Part shown: positions 34,784 through 45,552 of the stretch, in pieces
Layout of the letters: every line of letters starts with the position of its first letter
How positions within the stretch are numbered: position 1 is the stretch's first letter
Source: a virus
Taxonomy: Duplodnaviria > Heunggongvirae > Uroviricota > Caudoviricetes
DNA: 45,562 nucleotides
Reading direction: 5' to 3' (one strand)
IMG/VR virus record: IMGVR_UViG_3300015184_000033
Program-made: the position numbers and the translations under genes
The notes under the pieces: model-generated
What the model saw: only the letters and a program-made list of their open reading frames with translations
Database searches by the model: none
Told to the model about the DNA's origin: nothing

Positions 34784-35440
34784 ATGAAAAGCAACGACGA
34801 GAACATCAAGAAAGAAATAGGTCTGCGCATTCAGACTCTACGGAAACAATCCGGCATGACTGCCGGAGATCTCCAGCAAGTCACTGGAATAGGCTTAAGC
34901 ACCTTGCAGAACTATGAGGCCGGATTAAGACAACCATCTATACCTGCCATCAAGAAAATCGCGCACGCCCTGAAAGCATCAGCGCCTTATATCGCGTGCT
35001 TAACAGATAACCCGTTCCCACCCCAGAATACTAACGCTCCTGTTATTCCTGGGCTTGTAGCTATAAAAAATGACATAGCATCGCACGCCGGAGAAAAGCC
35101 AGTGCTGGCGATAGAACAGGAGATTCTACGAAGCAAGAACATCAACCCATCGTCTCTGTCAGTTCTCCAGAGCAACGATGAGTTAATGTCACCAACAATA
35201 TCCCCTGGCTCCCAAGTCCTGATTAATACAGACGATACAGAGATTCATGAGGGGATCTATGCCCTTGAAGACAGAAATGGCCTGGTTGTTTTGAGGCACT
35301 GTAGAGTCATACCGGGTGACAATGCTGTTATGCTGTCAACCGAAAGGGATGCTGAAATGAACACTAAGCATCTGAATAACGAGGAATTTAAGCGTTATAA
35401 AGTTCTTGGCCGCGTAGTTAGTGTTGTCAACTGGTTATGA
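34784..35440 (+). CDS. cI-like repressor (HTH_XRE plus LexA-type S24 autopeptidase domain)
   Basis: 218-aa ORF; N-terminal HTH (LRKQSGMTAGDLQQVTGIGLSTLQNYEAG), C-terminal domain with MSPTISPG serine motif and a downstream Lys. Confidence 0.8.
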   Translation: MKSNDENIKKEIGLRIQTLRKQSGMTAGDLQQVTGIGLSTLQNYEAGLRQPSIPAIKKIAHALKASAPYIACLTDNPFPPQNTNAPVIPGLVAIKNDIASHAGEKPVLAIEQEILRSKNINPSSLSVLQSNDELMSPTISPGSQVLINTDDTEIHEGIYALEDRNGLVVLRHCRVIPGDNAVMLSTERDAEMNTKHLNNEEFKRYKVLGRVVSVVNWL

Positions 35441-35482
35441 TACACAGCACGGCGAAAGCCGTGCATTTCTACGCTCAAAAAA

Positions 35483-35497
35483 ACCACATTTTGTGGT
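35483..35497. promoter_or_regulatory. Operator-like palindrome ACCACATTTTGTGGT downstream of cI-like gene
   Basis: Same dyad as the immunity-region operators; also a hairpin. Confidence 0.45.
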
Positions 35498-35532
35498 TTT
35501 GACAACATGTAAAAGTATAAAAGAGGCTACGC

Positions 35533-36036: not shown

Positions 36037-36057
36037 AAACACATGGAGTCTCGACAA

Positions 36058-36711
36058 ATGACTATCTCTGTAGGTATTTTCAACGGAAAAGGCGGCGTAA
36101 CCAAATCAACAATTGCCCGTGCTTTAGCAGTTGCTTATGCAAAGGCCGGCTGGAATGTATGCCTGATCGATATGGATGTGCTTAACGGAACGGTAACGCG
36201 TTGGGTACAACGCAGAATGGCCAACAATATCGAACCAGCAATCGCGGCACAGCCGTGCGGCACACCATCACAAGTCCAGAAAATCATCGAATCAGAAGTA
36301 TACGACCTGGTTATCGTAGATGGCGGTGCCTACGCATCTGAATCAGTACCGAAGCTCTCTGAATTTCTGGATATGGTTATTTTGCCAACCAGATTCTCTA
36401 CCGATGACCTGGAAACCACCGTTAACACAGCTCACGGCATCGTTAAAAAGGGTGTACCAATCAAGAAAATTTGCATGGTGTTTTCCGGCGCGGCTGAAAA
36501 CGAAGCTGACTATATTGAAGCCCAAGAGTACCTGGCTAATACGCCATACTTTGTTGTCGATAAGTACATTCCCCACAAGCCAGCTCTGAGCAAAGCTCAG
36601 GATAAGGGCTTAAGCCTCATTGAGTGCTCATACGTTGCGCCACGCAAAAAGGCAGACGACGTTATTCAGGGGATTATCAACCAGCTTGAGGCTCTGACTA
36701 CTGCCGCGTAA
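36058..36711 (+). CDS. ParA/ParF-type partition ATPase
   Basis: Deviant Walker A GKGGVTKST near N-terminus; start placed at ATG 36058 with GGAG 9 nt upstream; about 217 aa as for small type-Ib ParA. Confidence 0.85.
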   Translation: MTISVGIFNGKGGVTKSTIARALAVAYAKAGWNVCLIDMDVLNGTVTRWVQRRMANNIEPAIAAQPCGTPSQVQKIIESEVYDLVIVDGGAYASESVPKLSEFLDMVILPTRFSTDDLETTVNTAHGIVKKGVPIKKICMVFSGAAENEADYIEAQEYLANTPYFVVDKYIPHKPALSKAQDKGLSLIECSYVAPRKKADDVIQGIINQLEALTTAA

Positions 36712-38500: not shown

Positions 38501-38612
38501 TTAGTCTGTTAAAATCCGCCGTATTGACATGAATGCGCCATTGGTGGACACTTTCCGAGCCGTAGCAAAATCTACGGTCGGGATTGGAACCCCGATAATC
38601 ATCATGGCGCAT

Positions 38613-38635
38613 ACCGCGTTAGCGGTTTTTTTATG
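38613..38635 (+). terminator. Attenuator-like hairpin with T-run in the antirepressor leader
   Basis: ACCGC-GTTA-GCGGT followed by TTTTTTTAT; outer arms GCGCATA/TATGCG allow an alternative pairing. Confidence 0.4.
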
Positions 38636-38797
38636 CGTAAAGCACTGCTACACCCAAATTATGGTGGGGCGTGCGGGGGAGTCGTTAGACTCGCCGGATT
38701 CCATGGTGACCGGTAGTTCCAACCCTGTACGTCTCACCACCCAATGATTGGAACCAGACGGTGGTGAGTATCCTTAACCTTTAAGGGAACTATCACC

Positions 38798-41632: not shown

Positions 41633-41932
41633 TCAGATGTTAAACGCTATTCGTTTTCCTGTGGGAAGCTCAACATCCAGGCTTAATTTGCCTCCCATAG
41701 CTTCAACGTAACGCTTTAATGTCGCCAGCTTTAAATCATTTCCGCGCTGCTCCAGCTTTGTTACTGCTGGCTGGCTTATACCCATCGCCTCAGCAACCTG
41801 TTTTTGTGATAACTGGAGTTCTTCACGCATCATCTGCAAGCCGACCTCAAGAATCATCTCATCTGCCATTTCTTTAATTCGCGCCTGGCTTTCCGGTGAA
41901 CGGCTGGCAATCGCCTCATCTAATGTTCTCAT
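41633..41932 (-). CDS. HigA-like HTH antitoxin
   Basis: 99-aa ORF with XRE-type HTH (LQLSQKQVAEAMGISQPAVTKLEQ); immediately downstream of toxin-like ORF. Confidence 0.65.
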   Translation of the reverse strand: MRTLDEAIASRSPESQARIKEMADEMILEVGLQMMREELQLSQKQVAEAMGISQPAVTKLEQRGNDLKLATLKRYVEAMGGKLSLDVELPTGKRIAFNI

Positions 41933-42279
41933 TACTTGCTCTCCAGTGTGTTCAGATGTGCTGCAAACTCATCCTCAGCTATACGCACCAGTTTTTCATA
42001 AAACCGCTTATCGTTACTTTTGTCTCCTGCACAAAGAACGATGGCCCGGCGAATCGGATCGAACGCATAAAAGGCTCTTATCGGACGGCCAGAAAACTGA
42101 ACGCGAAGCTCTTTCATATTTTTGTACCGAGAACCTTTTACGGTATCGGCATATGGCCTGGGTAACTCAGGTCCGTAAACCTGTAGCTTTTTCAAATCAG
42201 CCAAAACCTTTTCCTGAAGAGCGTCTTCTTGCTCATTTAGCCAGTCGTCAAATCGCTGGCTAAAAAGTACCGTCCACAT
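41932..42279 (-). CDS. HigB/RelE-superfamily toxin-like protein (Gp49-like)
   Basis: About 115 aa from ATG 42279 (AGGA upstream); motifs KELRVQFSGRPIRAFYAF and VLCAGDKSND typical of HigB-like killer proteins; toxin-first order. Confidence 0.6.
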   Translation of the reverse strand: MWTVLFSQRFDDWLNEQEDALQEKVLADLKKLQVYGPELPRPYADTVKGSRYKNMKELRVQFSGRPIRAFYAFDPIRRAIVLCAGDKSNDKRFYEKLVRIAEDEFAAHLNTLESK

Positions 42280-42523
42280 GCTCAATCCTATAACCTGTAG
42301 TTTATATCACTAACTATATAACCTGTGAGTTATAATTTCAAGAAAAACGGGGCTATTTAACATAATGGACGTTATCGGCACCACCGGATCACCGTTCATT
42401 GTCGGATCTAAAAAATCCGCTCAAAAGATCATGTTTTCCTGGGCGTTTTCCACCGTTTTTTATGTTGCTTATTTGTTAATGAAATCTCGTTTTCAGTTTC
42501 GCCTCATTTTCGACGCGAAAGCC

Positions 42524-43290: not shown

Positions 43291-43449
43291 TGCAAAGCCC
43301 GGCCGTAGGCCTTATTTCGGCCTTATATAAATTGATTTTGTATAGTTCGAAACGTGCCGTTTCGAAAAGGATGATCAGGCTGCTCCATGCCTCCGGCAAG
43401 TGCCGGAGGAGGTATATATTTGAGCGTAGCGACTCGAACCGGCGCGAGC
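43291..43449. repeat. Cluster of short palindromes/hairpins downstream of the origin region
   Basis: AGGCC-TTATTTC-GGCCT (43297-43313), TTCGAAACG-TG-CCGTTTCGAA (43336-43355), CCTCCGGCA-AG-TGCCGGAGG (43380-43399), GCGAGC-TTTA-GCTCGC (43434-43449). Confidence 0.6.
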
Positions 43450-43499
43450 TTTAGCTCGCTGCAAGGGCGAACATATTCACAGGCAAAGCCTGCGTAAGT

Positions 43500-43700
43500 T
43501 AAATAAAGAAAGTCTTAATAAAAGAAAGTGATTTTGCATTTATTTGTTTAGTGCATCTATTATAAAAAACCATTTGCATATACATATCAAAACTGTGGAT
43601 AACTTTATTAGCCGATGCCTGTGAAGGCGATATTTTTGCTGTGTTCAGGTTTAGAGAAAATTAATTTAGATTGTTTTTTGAACAGACATTTTATTGCGAC
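43500..43700. other. Candidate plasmid-type origin (oriR-like): AT-rich region with DnaA box downstream of repA
   Basis: Strongly AT-rich block; TGTGGATAA (complement of TTATCCACA) at 43584-43592; position matches IncFII oriR arrangement. Confidence 0.5.
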
Positions 43701-43743
43701 GTAGATAATCCTCCGGTAAAACCGGATTCATCATTAAGGTGGG

Positions 43744-44592
43744 TTAATGTTGGAGTGATTTCCAGGTCTTTCTTAACCTGTTATAACGCTGCTCAACGAG
43801 GGATCGTAAATATGCAAGGTCAGCTCCAGGATACATGCCATCAGCAAATTCCTGGCTAACCTCTCTAGTGATTTGATGACGAAGTTCGGCCTCTCCCTTT
43901 TCCCGAACAAGACGCGCAGCTCTCTCCGCTGCTTTCTGTTTTGCCTTTATCTCTCTGGCCGTCTTCCTCTGACGCCATACATTCTCCATCTGCTCCTGAA
44001 TAACAATACGCTTATAATCAGCCTCCGTTATCGCTTTTTTAAGCCGTTCGCTATTCTTCGCATTGAAGTAATTAAGTTTCTGGCTAACCGCACGTCTCCA
44101 TGCTTGTTCAGTAATACCAACGGTTTCCAGCAGTTGATCACGAATCTCTATTTTCGCTGGCCAATACTGTTTATTCACCCGATCCCAGCGACGTTCATAA
44201 TCAATAAAACCTAACTCTTTCAGTTGCGACAACGCCCTTGTACAGCGCGTTATAGACTTGTTCCCAGCTTCGGATACGGTAGACAGGCCGCAAAAATCAG
44301 CCAACGCCTCAGCACTGGCCAGAACCCGCTTAGAAATGATGTTTACATGGTGCAAAATCGCAGCAATCACAGCATTAATTGCCCGACGACGATGCTCGTT
44401 TATCCGGCGTTTCCGCTCTGACGGTTGATTAACGTAGAACGCAACCTCACACGTAAGATCACGACCATTAATGCGCTGTAAAGCATCAGATAACACCAGC
44501 GGCAGCTTGTGCGTATGGTGCTTTGGAGGCTGGAACTCCGGCGACAAATTACAAACGTAAGCTGAACGTAGAGACGGCATTGGTCTATCCAT
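43744..44592 (-). CDS. repA: Replication initiator RepA (IncFII RepA1 family)
   Basis: Block SITRCTRALSQLKELGFIDYE aligns with remembered R100 RepA1 SITRATRALTFLSELGLITYQ; start set at ATG 44592 because the tracked ORF starts at GTG 44736 and its first codons overlap an antisense-strand terminator hairpin. Confidence 0.75.
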   Translation of the reverse strand: MDRPMPSLRSAYVCNLSPEFQPPKHHTHKLPLVLSDALQRINGRDLTCEVAFYVNQPSERKRRINEHRRRAINAVIAAILHHVNIISKRVLASAEALADFCGLSTVSEAGNKSITRCTRALSQLKELGFIDYERRWDRVNKQYWPAKIEIRDQLLETVGITEQAWRRAVSQKLNYFNAKNSERLKKAITEADYKRIVIQEQMENVWRQRKTAREIKAKQKAAERAARLVREKGEAELRHQITREVSQEFADGMYPGADLAYLRSLVEQRYNRLRKTWKSLQH

Positions 44593-44690
44593 ATGTTCGC
44601 TCTTGCGTCCACGGAAAACCAACGTATAATGGGAGTTGTCGAGGCGCCCATGGTTAGTTGTTGGTTTTCCTTTCCGTGGATGTCGCAAGA

Positions 44691-44722
44691 AGCCCGCAGA
44701 TTTATCTGCGGGCTTTTTGTTT
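44691..44722 (+). terminator. Hairpin plus T-run antisense to the repA leader (candidate CopA-like antisense RNA terminator)
   Basis: GCCCGCAGA-TTTA-TCTGCGGGC followed by TTTTTGTTT on the plus strand. Confidence 0.45.
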
Positions 44723-44762
44723 CCATATCTGGTCACTTTTCAACCAGACACCCACAATCATA

Positions 44763-44777
44763 ACCACGTTACGTGGT
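44763..44777. promoter_or_regulatory. Operator-like dyad ACCACGTTACGTGGT upstream of the repA leader
   Basis: Perfect ACCAC-N5-GTGGT dyad, same family as immunity-region operators. Confidence 0.5.
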
Positions 44778-44907
44778 TTTAAGAGAACTCTACCACAACA
44801 CTTTCGGTCATGCACGAAGTCTCTCACTGATCGAACGATAATCCACCAGTAAAAGGATCTAAATTGGATCTCGTTTTGCGAGCATCATACTACTGGCCTA
44901 ACTCCAG

Positions 44908-45462
44908 TCAATGATTCCCAGCCGGAAACCTGCGGTAAAGCGTGGATAAGGTAACATCGAAGATAATCGCTATCCGCTTACGTGAAACACCATTCGCAAT
45001 AAGCCTTCCGATCTGTTCCCATTGCTCTGGTGCCAATTTTGAGCGGCGTCCTCCTATCCTGCCGTTAGCCCTTGCCACCGCCAATCCTGCACGCGTTCTT
45101 TCAATCATATTTTCCCGCTCCATCTCTGCGACTGCACTCAGCATCGTGTAGGCAAAGCGGCCAATTGAAGTGCTAATTTTTATCCCTTCCGTAATCGAAA
45201 TAAACTCAATGTTGTTTGATAAAAAATGGTTAAGTAAATCAACAAGATGAATCAGAGAACGCCCCATTCGGTCCAGCTTCCAGACAATAACCGTATCGCC
45301 CGGCCGTAACACCTTCAGTAGCTTATCAAGTCCTGGTCGTTTTGATTTAGCACCGGATATTTTATCTTCAAAAATCCGGTCACATCCTGAACTCCTGAGC
45401 GCCTCCAGTTGTAATTCCAAATTCTGGTCAAAAGTTGACACCCTCGCATAACCATATTGCAT
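44908..45462 (-). CDS. Serine recombinase, DNA invertase of the Hin/Gin/Cin/Pin family
   Basis: 184-aa ORF; MQYGYARVSTFDQNLELQ...GDTVIVWKLDRMGRS...RIAIIFDVTLSTLYRRFPAGNH parallels remembered Hin sequence including catalytic Ser region and C-terminal HTH. Confidence 0.9.
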   Translation of the reverse strand: MQYGYARVSTFDQNLELQLEALRSSGCDRIFEDKISGAKSKRPGLDKLLKVLRPGDTVIVWKLDRMGRSLIHLVDLLNHFLSNNIEFISITEGIKISTSIGRFAYTMLSAVAEMERENMIERTRAGLAVARANGRIGGRRSKLAPEQWEQIGRLIANGVSRKRIAIIFDVTLSTLYRRFPAGNH

Positions 45463-45526: not shown

Positions 45527-45552
45527 TTCGCAAAAACCTCGGTTTACAGGAA
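45527..45552. other. gix/hix-like invertase crossover site (right), TTCGCAAAAACCTCGGTTTACAGGAA
   Basis: Inverted relative to site at 11-36; close to remembered gix (TTATCCAAAACCTCGGTTTACAGGAA); 65 bp from invertase gene start. Confidence 0.6.

What the first reader, a model, noticed from the sequence alone, without database searches (positions are those of the whole stretch)
43500..44780. IncFII-like replication control region: hairpin terminator antisense to the repA leader, internal true start, and oriR-like AT-rich region with DnaA box
The tracked RepA ORF starts at GTG 44736 and its first codons overlap a strong plus-strand hairpin plus T-run (44691-44722), the expected signature of a CopA-like antisense RNA terminator over the repA leader. 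An ATG at 44592 gives a protein of IncFII RepA1 length. Downstream of repA lies an AT-rich block with TGTGGATAA at 43584-43592, as in R1/R100 oriR. Upstream, a phage operator-like dyad replaces the usual copB gene.
Basis: partly seen in the sequence, partly recalled or inferred. Interest (0 to 1): 0.5.

Follow-up and report, generated by a model that had tools for sequence, protein, structure and literature searches.

The report
Phage-plasmid replicon with antisense control
This stretch is the plasmid-type replication module (initiator gene, small antisense control RNA, replication origin) of a ~48-kb E. coli phage that lives as a plasmid. It is a diverged relative of the classic IncFII / IncL-M replicons, and it carries the phage's own operator motif where IncFII plasmids have the CopB repressor.

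Summary
The window is a ~48-kb E. coli phage-plasmid found in 71 of 5,426 complete genomes, always as a plasmid.

repA (minus strand) belongs to the broad RepA_IncFII_LM family but fails the strict IncFII model.

A conserved plus-strand promoter (TTGCGT-16-TATAAT, 44603-44630) and the hairpin plus T-run (44692-44722) define a ~87-nt countertranscript. Promoter and terminator are present in all 12 loci examined from 59-99% RepA relatives, with compensatory changes in the terminator stem.

The upstream in-frame extension of repA is non-coding. Relatives read it in other frames or interrupt it. The real start is internal: ATG 44580 (conserved) or ATG 44592.

Downstream lies an oriR-like origin, collinear with IncFII oriR: DnaA box, three ATGCA repeats, AT-rich repeats and covarying stem-loops.

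The dyad at 44762-44778 is one of five copies of an operator motif. Two others flank the promoter region of the CI-like repressor gene.

The replicon is not a member of the CopA, PK-repBA or strict IncFII families. It is a new variant of a known kind, of moderate interest.

The parts
43744..44592 (-). repA, the replication initiator. It is 282 aa from ATG 44592. The Met conserved in relatives is ATG 44580 (278 aa). The ORF stays open in frame up to GTG 44736, but that extension is judged non-coding.
   Evidence: Pfam PF02387, 7e-44, from residue 57 of the 330-aa ORF. NF040977 RepA_IncFII_LM, 233 bits against a cut-off of 70. Relatives start at the position of ATG 44580. Met1 of IncFII RepA aligns to that Met.
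44603..44630 (+). Promoter of the countertranscript: -35 TTGCGT (44603-44608), 16-nt spacer, -10 TATAAT (44625-44630).
   Evidence: The sequence itself. TATAAT is invariant and the -35 is TTGCGT or TTGCAT in 11 of the 12 loci (L006 keeps the TATAAT but not that -35). The simple promoter scan did not call it, because the -35 matches only 3 of 6.
44636..44722 (+). Predicted ~87-nt countertranscript (ctRNA). It has a conserved 5' end (GGAGUUGUCGAGGC lies at 44632-44645 and the start is inferred within it), a variable stem-loop I (about 44643-44684) and a terminator stem-loop (44685-44722).
   Evidence: Fold of -40.6 kcal/mol, z = -5.8. In RNAalifold on 8 distinct sequences, the terminator has 15 pairs, 5 of them with compensatory changes. 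The transcript ends are inferred, not mapped.
44692..44722 (+). Intrinsic terminator of the ctRNA: stem GCCCGCAGAT/ATCTGCGGGC followed by TTTTTGTTT.
   Evidence: L005 and L017 carry an A:T to G:C double change in the stem.
44602..44689 (-). Long-range stem-loop of the repA leader mRNA. The 5' arm is 44689-44660 and the 3' arm is 44623-44602. The loop holds the complement of the ctRNA 5' end and the ctRNA -10 box.
   Evidence: Fold of -35.2 kcal/mol, z = -5.1. The same architecture is found with quite different arm sequences in the 60% group, and compensatory changes occur within the 81-99% group.
44762..44778 (.). Operator dyad AACCACGTTACGTGGTT, placed at about +3 to +19 of promoter P2.
   Evidence: Five dyads of AACCAC-N5-GTGGT occur in the window (34628, 34731, 35482, 38485, 44762), giving 11 strand-wise hits against 0.52 expected and 0 of 100 shuffles. 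The arms are conserved and the centre is variable in relatives.
44787..44815 (-). Promoter P2 of repA (predicted): GTGCAT, 17-nt spacer, extended -10 TGGTAGAGT (44795-44787). Transcription would start near 44780.
   Evidence: TGnTAGAGT and GTGCA(T/C) keep the same spacing in the 81-99% group and in most loci of the 60% group examined (L007, L008, L009, L019). This is a prediction only.
44884..44911 (-). Upstream promoter P1 (predicted): TTGACT, 16-nt spacer, TATGAT. It overlaps the stop codon of the invertase gene.
   Evidence: The promoter scan gives 10 of 12 matches. The hexamers are conserved with a variable spacer in L004 and L005, including L005, which has no invertase gene. In L017 the -35 is not conserved.
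43594..43602 (-). DnaA box, TTATCCACA on the repA-sense strand.
   Evidence: It is the only exact match in the window. It sits at the same position in 7 of 7 relatives (4 exact, 3 with one change) and in the IncFII locus L003.
43530..43579 (-). Three ATGCA(A/C) repeats (43570-43579, 43547-43556, 43530-43539). They are candidate RepA-binding sites.
   Evidence: They are invariant cores in the 7-sequence alignment. The same triplet lies next to a DnaA box and a 29%-identical RepA in 'Ca. Erwinia haradaeae' pBioThi plasmids. Binding is inferred.
43499..43529 (-). Two AT-rich direct repeats, ACTTTCTTT(T)ATT(T)AA. This is the candidate DNA-unwinding element.
   Evidence: Direct-repeat family D1. 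GC is 25-30% here. The position corresponds to the AT-rich TTTAAA-type repeats of IncFII oriR in L003.
43435..43494 (-). Two conserved stem-loops just beyond the AT-rich block (43478-43494 and 43435-43469). They may be a single-strand initiation or primase site.
   Evidence: RNAalifold on 7 sequences gives 23 pairs, 7 with compensatory changes. G:T pairs favour the repA-sense strand. The function is inferred by analogy only.
43712..43726 (-). Hairpin TCCGG-N5-CCGGA directly after the repA stop. It is shared with IncFII.
   Evidence: The alignment that includes IncFII locus L003.

Best explanation
The region 43435-44911 is the theta-type basic replicon of a ~48-kb phage-plasmid.

The initiator: RepA is the initiator. 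It is a diverged member of the RepA_IncFII_LM family, translated from an internal start (ATG 44580 or 44592).

Transcription of repA (inferred): repA is transcribed on the minus strand from two predicted promoters. P1 (44911-44884) has no operator. P2 (44815-44787) has a start site covered by a 17-bp operator. That operator has the same sequence type as four other operators in the phage's immunity and early regions. It is therefore probably bound by the phage's CI-like repressor (34784-35440). The repressor would take the place of CopB of plasmid R1.

The control RNA: a ~87-nt countertranscript is made from the opposite strand (44636-44722). It is fully complementary to the leader, and it is inferred to hold RepA synthesis, and so copy number, down.

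How it may inhibit (inferred): in the free mRNA, a long covarying stem-loop holds the 3' arm (44623-44602) and leaves ATG 44580 single-stranded. When the countertranscript pairs with the 5' arm and loop, the freed 3' arm is predicted to pair with the start-codon region.

The origin (inferred): RepA then acts in cis at the origin just downstream (43435-43602). That origin has a DnaA box, three ATGCA repeats, AT-rich repeats and stem-loops.

Shown here: homology, conservation, covariation and motif enrichment. Inferred: transcript ends, which protein binds the operator, the refolding mechanism and origin function.
For: Family: PF02387 at 7e-44. NF040977 at 233 bits against a cut-off of 70. 32% identity to a true IncFII RepA, E = 1e-21.

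Extrachromosomal state: 71 of 5,426 complete E. coli genomes carry the region. All 82 places are on plasmids of ~47-52 kb and none is on a chromosome. The same element occurs in 63 plasmid records in the plasmid collection, and as three isolated Yersinia phages. No other replication initiator, helicase or primase is annotated in the 48.5-kb relative.

ctRNA: the promoter and terminator module is present in all 12 loci from 59-99% RepA relatives. The terminator has 15 pairs, 5 with compensatory changes. The fold z-score is -5.8.

Internal start:
- Relatives' RepA are 277-284 aa and begin at or next to the position of ATG 44580.
- The conserved leader nucleotides are read in different frames in L005 and L017, and are interrupted by a stop in L004 and L015.
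- Two alleles within the 99% group differ by indels that change the frame of the extension.

Long stem: z = -5.1. The arms covary.

Refolding: when the ctRNA target is masked, the predicted unpaired probability of ATG 44580 falls from 0.94 to 0.04. The same direction is seen in L001, L005 and L017.

Operator: 5 dyads against ~0.5 hits expected by chance. Two of them lie in the intergenic region in front of the HTH_3 + S24 repressor gene. The 82% relative L042 has the motif both at P2 and three more times 7-8 kb away.

Origin: a conserved block collinear with IncFII oriR. Its stem-loops covary.

Literature for the analogies: R1 PcopB/PrepA/CopB (PMC5717011); R1 oriR DnaA box with RepA binding next to it (PMC5883639).
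Against: - No transcript, protein-binding or replication data exist for this element.
- The ctRNA -35 matches the consensus in only 3 of 6 positions. Neither the ctRNA promoter nor the terminator was listed by the simple scan.
- Rfam CopA, PK-repBA and PK-repZ do not match the window, even at E <= 10 on 241 nt.
- The refolding model is thermodynamic prediction only, and it is not uniform. The Shine-Dalgarno-like AAGAG before ATG 44592 is paired in the free mRNA (unpaired probability 0.09) and becomes more open when the target is masked (0.50). In L004 the repA ATG does not change.
- In L004, L005 and L017 the ATG that has a Shine-Dalgarno sequence is out of frame with repA. How RepA is initiated there is unclear.
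- The identity of the operator-binding protein is untested.
- The 14-nt ctRNA 5' end is invariant across groups, which is odd for a specificity determinant.
Confidence: 0.75

Rival explanations
1. Control by a leader ORF, as in IncFII (tap) or IncL/M and the I-complex (repB/repY plus a pseudoknot). Ribosomes would start upstream of the ctRNA target, at GTG 44736 (in frame) or ATG 44726 (+1 frame). They would translate through the 5' arm and open the long stem that buries AAGAG, so activating initiation at 44592 or 44580. The ctRNA would work by blocking that upstream translation. In this window the 'leader' would happen to be fused in frame to repA, so some 330-aa RepA would be made.
For: - The Shine-Dalgarno-like AAGAG is paired in the base of the long stem in the free mRNA.
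- The 3' end of the ctRNA target abuts the candidate starts at 44726 and 44736.
- In six relatives (L005, L017, L006, L008, L007, L018) an ORF ends in a TGA that overlaps the repA start codon (ATGA in five; GTGA in L006).
- The leader of the 63% relative L006 passes the Rfam gathering score for PK-repBA, 49.3 against 45.
- The mechanism is described for pMU604 in PMC8125031.
Against: - No upstream start codon or reading frame is conserved across the ctRNA target in the 81-99% group. What is conserved just 5' of the target is a hairpin, not a start.
- There is no good Shine-Dalgarno sequence before 44736 or 44726.
- PK-repBA and PK-repZ do not match the window.
- No complementarity suited to a pseudoknot was found conserved.
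Confidence: 0.2
2. The annotated long form is the real initiator. That is 330 aa from GTG 44736 here, or 326 aa from the ATG in the ATCC 25922 allele as NCBI's annotation pipeline (PGAP) calls it. The hairpin would then be only an intragenic structure.
For: The ORF is open in frame in both alleles of the 99% group, and PGAP annotates 326 aa.
Against: - The two alleles reach repA through different frames, giving unrelated peptides.
- L004 and L015 have an in-frame stop, and L017 has no in-frame start upstream.
- All family profiles and the IncFII alignment start at the internal Met codons.
- One submitter annotated the 282-aa form (AP019710).
- The conservation pattern is that of promoter boxes and paired arms, not of codons.
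Confidence: 0.05
3. The dyad at 44762-44778 is bound by a regulator other than the CI-like repressor. Candidates are the 72-aa regulator at 38529-38747, or RepA itself in autoregulation. Alternatively it has no regulatory role at repA.
For: Binding was not tested. Several helix-turn-helix proteins are encoded in the window. One of the five sites (38485) lies in front of the small regulator gene.
Against: - The motif is absent from the origin, where RepA must bind.
- Two sites lie in the intergenic region in front of the CI-like gene, the classical autoregulatory layout.
- The arms are conserved while the centre varies in relatives.
- The 60% group has a different dyad (CTAC-N5-GTAG) at the same place.
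Confidence: 0.2
4. The ctRNA acts by transcription attenuation, as in pT181 or pIP501, rather than on translation.
For: The leader has alternative hairpins. The only Rfam similarities are to attenuator-type leaders such as Thr_leader, at 34.6 bits against a gathering score of 55, and on the ctRNA strand.
Against: On the mRNA strand no hairpin followed by a U-run lies between the target and repA. The Thr_leader match lies on the plus strand and only reflects 'hairpin plus terminator'.
Confidence: 0.03

Closest known systems
IncFII basic replicon of R1/R100 (copB-copA-tap-repA-oriR)
   Same: - The RepA is homologous: 32% identity, E = 1e-21.
- A ~90-nt countertranscript is made against the repA leader.
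- There are two tandem repA promoters, and the downstream one has an operator (the R1 layout is described in PMC5717011).
- The origin lies downstream of repA, with a hairpin after the stop codon, a DnaA box on the repA-proximal side, then initiator sites and AT-rich repeats (PMC5883639).
   Different: - The strict IncFII RepA model fails, 82 bits against a cut-off of 447.
- Rfam CopA does not match, although it scores 96.6 bits on the IncFII control locus.
- There is no copB gene and no separate 24-codon tap ORF.
- The ctRNA promoter sits inside the loop of a long leader stem.
- The initiator-binding region is about half as long and uses ATGCA repeats.
- The operator motif is shared with the phage immunity region.
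IncL/M (pMU604/pCTX-M3 repCBA) and I-complex (IncI1/B/K/Z repYZ) replicons
   Same: - They belong to the same RepA superfamily (NF040977 'RepA_IncFII_LM').
- An antisense RNA of ~70-77 nt targets the leader.
- A leader ORF is coupled to repA through an ATGA overlap in the 59-63% relatives.
- The leader of relative L006 passes the Rfam PK-repBA threshold.
- The mechanism is summarised in PMC8125031.
   Different: - The window itself does not match PK-repBA or PK-repZ.
- It has no separate leader ORF ending at the repA start.
- No pseudoknot partner was identified.
Prophage-repressor control of a plasmid-prophage replication gene (N15 CB repressor at repA; P1 C1 at the lytic replicon repL). This comparison rests on my own knowledge and was not checked in the paper library.
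   Same: The logic is the same: an operator for the phage's immunity repressor sits on the promoter of a replication gene. Loss of repressor, on induction or in a newly infected cell, would raise replication.
   Different: The initiators are unrelated (the N15 RepA is a primase-helicase type, and P1 uses RepL). In those systems no IncFII-type countertranscript acts on the same gene. Here repressor binding is only inferred from motif sharing.

Membership tests
RepA_IncFII_LM superfamily (Pfam PF02387 / NCBIfam NF040977) | The initiator protein scores above the curated cut-off of the family model. | tested here: met
   PF02387 at 150.7 bits against a cut-off of 22.9. NF040977 at 233.1 bits against 70.
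IncFII replicon sensu stricto (R1/R100) | RepA meets the IncFII equivalog model TIGR03474. | tested here: not met
   82.3 bits against a cut-off of 446.9. Identity to an IncFII RepA is 32%.
IncFII replicon sensu stricto (R1/R100) | A CopA antisense RNA (Rfam RF00042) lies opposite the repA leader. | tested here: not met
   There is no CopA match at E <= 10 on 44560-44800 or at E <= 1 on 3.5 kb. The control IncFII locus L003 scores 96.6 bits against a gathering score of 60. A countertranscript of similar size and position is nevertheless predicted.
IncFII replicon sensu stricto (R1/R100) | A copB repressor gene lies between the upstream promoter and PrepA. | tested here: not met
   Only ~100 nt lie between P1 and P2, with no conserved ORF. 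The IncFII control has copB at L003 1698-1946.
IncFII replicon sensu stricto (R1/R100) | A short tap leader peptide has a stop codon overlapping the repA start. | tested here: not met
   In the window the ATG with a Shine-Dalgarno sequence (44592) is in frame with repA, and no ORF ends at the start. Overlapping stops (ATGA; GTGA in L006) occur in six relatives: L005, L017, L006, L008, L007 and L018.
IncFII replicon sensu stricto (R1/R100) | oriR lies downstream of repA, with a DnaA box followed by initiator sites and AT-rich repeats. | tested here: met
   The layout is collinear with IncFII locus L003 and conserved in 7 relatives. Origin activity itself cannot be tested here.
IncL/M and I-complex pseudoknot-dependent replicons | The leader matches Rfam PK-repBA (RF01089) or PK-repZ (RF01087). 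| tested here: not met
   The window gives no match. The 63% relative L006 matches PK-repBA at 49.3 bits against a gathering score of 45.
Antisense-RNA (countertranscript) controlled theta replicons in general | A constitutive promoter and an intrinsic terminator on the strand opposite the rep leader give a small, fully complementary RNA. | tested here: met
   By sequence, conservation and covariation only. The transcript was not observed.
Phage-plasmid replication gene under the immunity repressor (N15/P1-like logic) | The repressor protein binds the operator at the rep promoter. | not testable with these tools
   Only motif sharing is shown: 5 dyads, 2 of them at the CI-like gene, and the same pattern in relative L042.

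The most novel reading that the evidence does not exclude
A single IncFII/L-M-type, countertranscript-limited replicon serves both plasmid maintenance and lytic amplification of a tailed phage. The phage's SOS-cleavable CI-like repressor has taken over the CopB role at the second repA promoter. Induction, or entry into a naive cell, would then release a burst of repA mRNA that outruns the antisense RNA. The control region would work through a leader architecture not described for R1, pMU604 or ColIb-P9: the ctRNA promoter lies inside the loop of a long stem whose freed 3' arm buries the start codon.
Probability: 0.4. Interest if true: 0.55.

Novelty: new variant of a known kind. Interest (0 to 1): 0.4.

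Why it matters
This ~48-kb myovirus-type phage-plasmid is carried by about 1.3% of complete E. coli genomes, including the reference strain ATCC 25922. It has also been isolated as a phage on Yersinia pestis.

The plasmid-typing tool (MOB-suite) did not type its replicon, and PGAP over-extends its initiator by ~45 codons.

Defining the real start, the control RNA and the origin has practical uses:
- It gives a usable minimal replicon.
- It gives an incompatibility determinant for typing.
- It corrects the annotation.

If the shared operator is really bound by the phage repressor, the element shows how a phage can plug a plasmid copy-control circuit into its lysis-lysogeny switch. That is a simple, testable case of module exchange between plasmids and phages.

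Tried and rejected
- Rfam on the window and on the 241-nt leader gave only sub-threshold matches to terminator-containing leaders (Thr_leader, 34.6 bits against 55). I reject these as generic.
- The protein-pattern scan of GTDB species genomes found no relative. The origin-pattern scan there found mostly chance hits, plus two Erwinia haradaeae plasmids.
- I considered a simple 'ctRNA hides the Shine-Dalgarno sequence' model. In the prediction, AAGAG before ATG 44592 is already paired in the free mRNA and becomes more open when the target is masked, so I dropped that version. Only the conserved ATG 44580 behaves as a negative switch would require.
- I looked for a conserved upstream leader ORF across the ctRNA target. 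Frames and starts are not conserved in the 81-99% group.
- I looked for a pseudoknot partner of the conserved loop. Two hexamers inside repA codons 14-20 are complementary to the loop, but they are absent from L004, so I treat them as chance.
- A second -10 candidate (TATGAT, 44763-44758) overlaps the operator. I ranked it below TGnTAGAGT because it degrades to TAAGAA in L005.
- The one-mismatch DnaA box at 44941-44949 lies inside the invertase gene, which L005 lacks, so it is not part of the replicon.
- Literature searches found no paper on this element or its replicon. The accession numbers appear only in unrelated contexts.
Full report
WHAT THE WINDOW IS

The 1.7 kb around the finding is 95-99% identical to 60 of 63 matching PLSDB plasmids of ~47-52 kb (the other three match at 60-80%). 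Most are from E. coli, and they include the unnamed 48,488-bp plasmid of E. coli ATCC 25922. It is also 98% identical to three isolated Yersinia phages, vB_YpM_39, vB_YpM_41 and vB_YpM_44.

In complete E. coli genomes it occurs in 71 of 5,426. All 82 places are on plasmids and none is on a chromosome. The annotated relative carries terminase, portal, capsid, contractile-tail and tail-fibre genes, ParA, a toxin-antitoxin pair and this repA. No other recognisable replication gene is annotated. The element is therefore a phage-plasmid, and the finding lies in what appears to be its only replicon.

CHECK OF THE OBSERVATION

- The longest repA ORF is 43744..44736 on the minus strand (330 aa, GTG start).
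- The plus-strand hairpin is real. It is a perfect 10-bp stem with a 2-nt loop, GCCCGCAGAT/ATCTGCGGGC (9 bp with a 4-nt loop as folded), at 44692-44713, followed by TTTTTGTTT to 44722.
- ATG 44592 is in frame and gives 282 aa.
- The dyad AACCACGTTACGTGGTT is at 44762-44778.
- GC drops to 25-31% between 43480 and 43720.
- The one error is the DnaA box. The exact TGTGGATAA is at 43594-43602, ten bases to the right of the stated position.

THE INITIATOR AND ITS START

RepA matches Pfam IncFII_repA (7e-44), but the match begins only at residue 57 of the 330-aa ORF. NCBIfam places it in RepA_IncFII_LM (233 bits, cut-off 70). It fails the strict IncFII equivalog (82 bits against 447). Against the RepA of a true IncFII replicon (L003; copB, tap, repA annotated) it is 32% identical over 208 residues. 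Met1 of that protein aligns to the Met encoded at 44580.

Homologues at 81-85% and 58-63% identity are 274-284 aa. They begin at, or a few codons from, the position of ATG 44580.

Three observations show that the upstream extension is not coding:
- The conserved leader nucleotides are read in a different frame relative to repA in L005 and L017. In L004 and L015 they are cut by an in-frame stop.
- Within the 99% group there are two leader alleles that differ by indels. The 'extension' is VTRYGNKKPADKS... in the window and METKSPQINLRAS... in the ATCC 25922 type.
- The pattern of conservation follows promoter hexamers and paired arms, not codons.

The Met conserved across relatives is ATG 44580. 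ATG 44592 has the only Shine-Dalgarno-like sequence (AAGAG, 7 nt upstream). However, the equivalent ATG is out of frame with repA in L004, L005 and L017. I cannot decide between the two codons, which lie four codons apart.

THE COUNTERTRANSCRIPT

On the plus strand, TTGCGT (44603-44608), a 16-nt spacer and TATAAT (44625-44630) lie ~85 nt upstream of the terminator. In all 12 loci examined (59-99% RepA identity) the same module is found. It consists of an invariant TATAAT, a TTGCGT or TTGCAT -35 (not kept in L006), and 75-90 nt later a G+C-rich hairpin with a T-run.

RNAalifold on the eight distinct sequences predicts the terminator with 15 pairs, 5 of which show compensatory double changes. 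One pair has three different pair types. The predicted 89-nt RNA folds into a 5' tail, a variable stem-loop and the terminator (-40.6 kcal/mol, z = -5.8). The first 14 nt (GGAGUUGUCGAGGC) are invariant in all eight.

The RNA is not a member of Rfam CopA. There is no match even at E <= 10 on 241 nt, whereas the IncFII control scores 96.6 bits. The simple promoter and terminator scan did not list either element, so the case rests on conservation and covariation. The transcript itself has not been seen.

THE LEADER

On the mRNA strand a long stem-loop forms (5' arm 44689-44660, 3' arm 44623-44602; -35.2 kcal/mol, z = -5.1). Its loop holds the complement of the ctRNA 5' end and the ctRNA -10 box.

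The same architecture is found in the 60% group with unrelated arm sequences (CATTGTCAGC/GCTGACAATG). Within the 81-99% group there are compensatory changes, G:C to A:U and A:U to U:A.

I masked the ctRNA target to mimic duplex formation. The 3' arm is then predicted to pair with the start region. The unpaired probability of ATG 44580 falls from 0.94 to 0.04 in the window, and falls in L001, L005 and L017, but not in L004.

The picture is not clean. AAGAG before ATG 44592 is paired in the free mRNA and is more open when the target is masked.

In the more distant relatives a leader ORF ends in an ATGA overlap with repA. It is 33 codons in L008 and 162 codons in L007 and L018. The leader of L006 passes the Rfam threshold for the IncL/M pseudoknot element PK-repBA. 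The lineage therefore descends from the leader-peptide type of control described for pMU604 (PMC8125031), and the window's version is a derived form. I rank a leader-ORF mechanism as the main rival.

PROMOTERS AND OPERATOR

Two minus-strand promoters are predicted.
- P1 is TTGACT, a 16-nt spacer, then TATGAT (44911-44884), with 10 of 12 matches. The hexamers are conserved around a variable spacer in L004 and in L005, although L005 lacks the invertase gene. The -35 is not conserved in L017.
- P2 is GTGCAT, a 17-nt spacer, then an extended -10, TGGTAGAGT (44815-44787). It is conserved with the same spacing in the 81-99% group and in most loci of the 60% group examined (L007, L008, L009, L019).

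The dyad lies at about +3 to +19 of P2. No ORF lies between P1 and P2.

The motif AACCAC-N5-GTGGT occurs at five places in the window. That gives 11 strand-wise hits with at most one mismatch, against 0.52 expected and 0 of 100 shuffles. The places are:
- 34628 and 34731, in the 174-bp region between a divergent gene and a 218-aa HTH_3 + Peptidase_S24 repressor-like gene (34784-35440);
- 35482, just after that gene and before the ParA region;
- 38485, before a small regulator gene followed by a Rha/ORF6N antirepressor-like gene;
- 44762, at repA.

In relatives the half-sites are kept while the central five bases vary. The 82% relative L042 has the motif at P2 and three more times 7-8 kb away. 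The 60% group has a different dyad (CTAC-N5-GTAG) at the same position.

The layout parallels R1, where a constitutive PcopB and a CopB-repressed PrepA both feed repA (PMC5717011). Here the repressor gene is missing and the operator is of the phage's own type. Binding by the CI-like protein is an inference.

THE ORIGIN

The 170 bp from the DnaA box onward are the best-conserved non-coding block among seven relatives. On the repA-sense strand it contains:
- TTATCCACA (43602-43594; exact in 4, one change in 3);
- three ATGCA(A/C) repeats (43579-43530);
- two AT-rich direct repeats (43529-43499);
- two stem-loops (43494-43435) with 7 of 23 pairs showing compensatory changes.

When the IncFII locus is added to the alignment, the order is the same: a hairpin TCCGG..CCGGAGG right after the stop, an A-run, the DnaA box, the initiator region, the AT-rich repeats, then a CCTGTG hairpin. 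In R1 the DnaA box lies in the 188-bp oriR, and DnaA binds only when RepA is bound immediately downstream (PMC5883639).

The same DnaA-box plus triple-ATGCA core lies next to a 29%-identical RepA on plasmids of the aphid symbiont 'Ca. Erwinia haradaeae'. The core is therefore old and probably the RepA site.

VERDICT

This is a functional-looking, diverged IncFII/L-M-superfamily replicon with a countertranscript, an internal repA start and an oriR-like origin.

It is not a member of the IncFII family in the strict sense, nor of the Rfam CopA or PK-repBA families.

Its distinctive points are:
- the operator type shared with the immunity region, in place of copB;
- the leader architecture, with the ctRNA promoter inside a covarying long stem;
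- the loss or fusion of the leader ORF.

None of this overturns known principles. I rate it a new variant of a known kind, with interest 0.4.

Noticed in passing
window 45527-45552 and 44908-45462 (minus strand): A gix/hix-type crossover site, TTCGCAAAAACCTCGGTTTACAGGAA, lies just upstream of a Gin/Hin-type serine invertase gene (Resolvase + HTH_7). In relatives, opposed tail-fibre assembly genes follow it. This is an invertible host-range segment that runs off the window end.
   Followed up: partly
L007 2016-2504, L009 2016-2504; also L018, L019: In some ~60% relatives the 'leader' ORF coupled to repA by an ATGA overlap is 162 aa. It gives a weak IncFII_repA hit in L007 and reads like a copy of the RepA N-terminal domain. 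In the sister locus L008 the ORF is only 33 aa.
   Followed up: partly
window 44632-44645 (plus strand): The first 14 nt of the predicted ctRNA (GGAGUUGUCGAGGC) are invariant across replicons whose RepA is only 59% identical, while the rest of the RNA body diverges. This is unexpected for an incompatibility determinant and is unexplained.
   Followed up: no
window 44640-44685 compared with L001: The 99% group has two leader alleles: the window and L010, against the ATCC 25922 type and the Yersinia phage. They differ by indels in the variable loop of the ctRNA and in the 5' arm of the leader stem. They may represent different incompatibility specificities.
   Followed up: partly
window 44856-44870: A pair of GATC (Dam) sites ~11 nt apart lies between P1 and P2. 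It is conserved in L004, L005 and L017, and is similar in L006. Its function is unknown.
   Followed up: no
window 41633-42285 (minus strand): A HigB/RelE-like toxin (Gp49 family, 117 aa) with an overlapping HTH_3 antitoxin-like gene lies ~1.3 kb from the origin. It is a likely plasmid-addiction module.
   Followed up: no
L024 2185-2300 and L027 5460-5570 ('Ca. Erwinia haradaeae' pBioThi plasmids): These plasmids carry the same origin core (TTATCCACA in L024, degenerate TTATACGCA in L027, then ATGCAAATGGTT..ATGCA..ATGCAA) downstream of a 29%-identical RepA. The origin core is therefore shared with insect-symbiont plasmids.
   Followed up: partly
window 35482-35498 and 36043-36711: One operator copy sits between the CI-like gene and a small gene followed by a ParA-type ATPase. 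Partition genes may therefore be under the same repressor.
   Followed up: no
window 44727-44752 (minus strand): A hairpin at the 5' side of the ctRNA target (GUCUGGUU..GACCAGAU) has counterparts with different sequences in L004, L005 and L017, judged by eye. It may be a stabilising structure at the 5' end of the mRNA.
   Followed up: no
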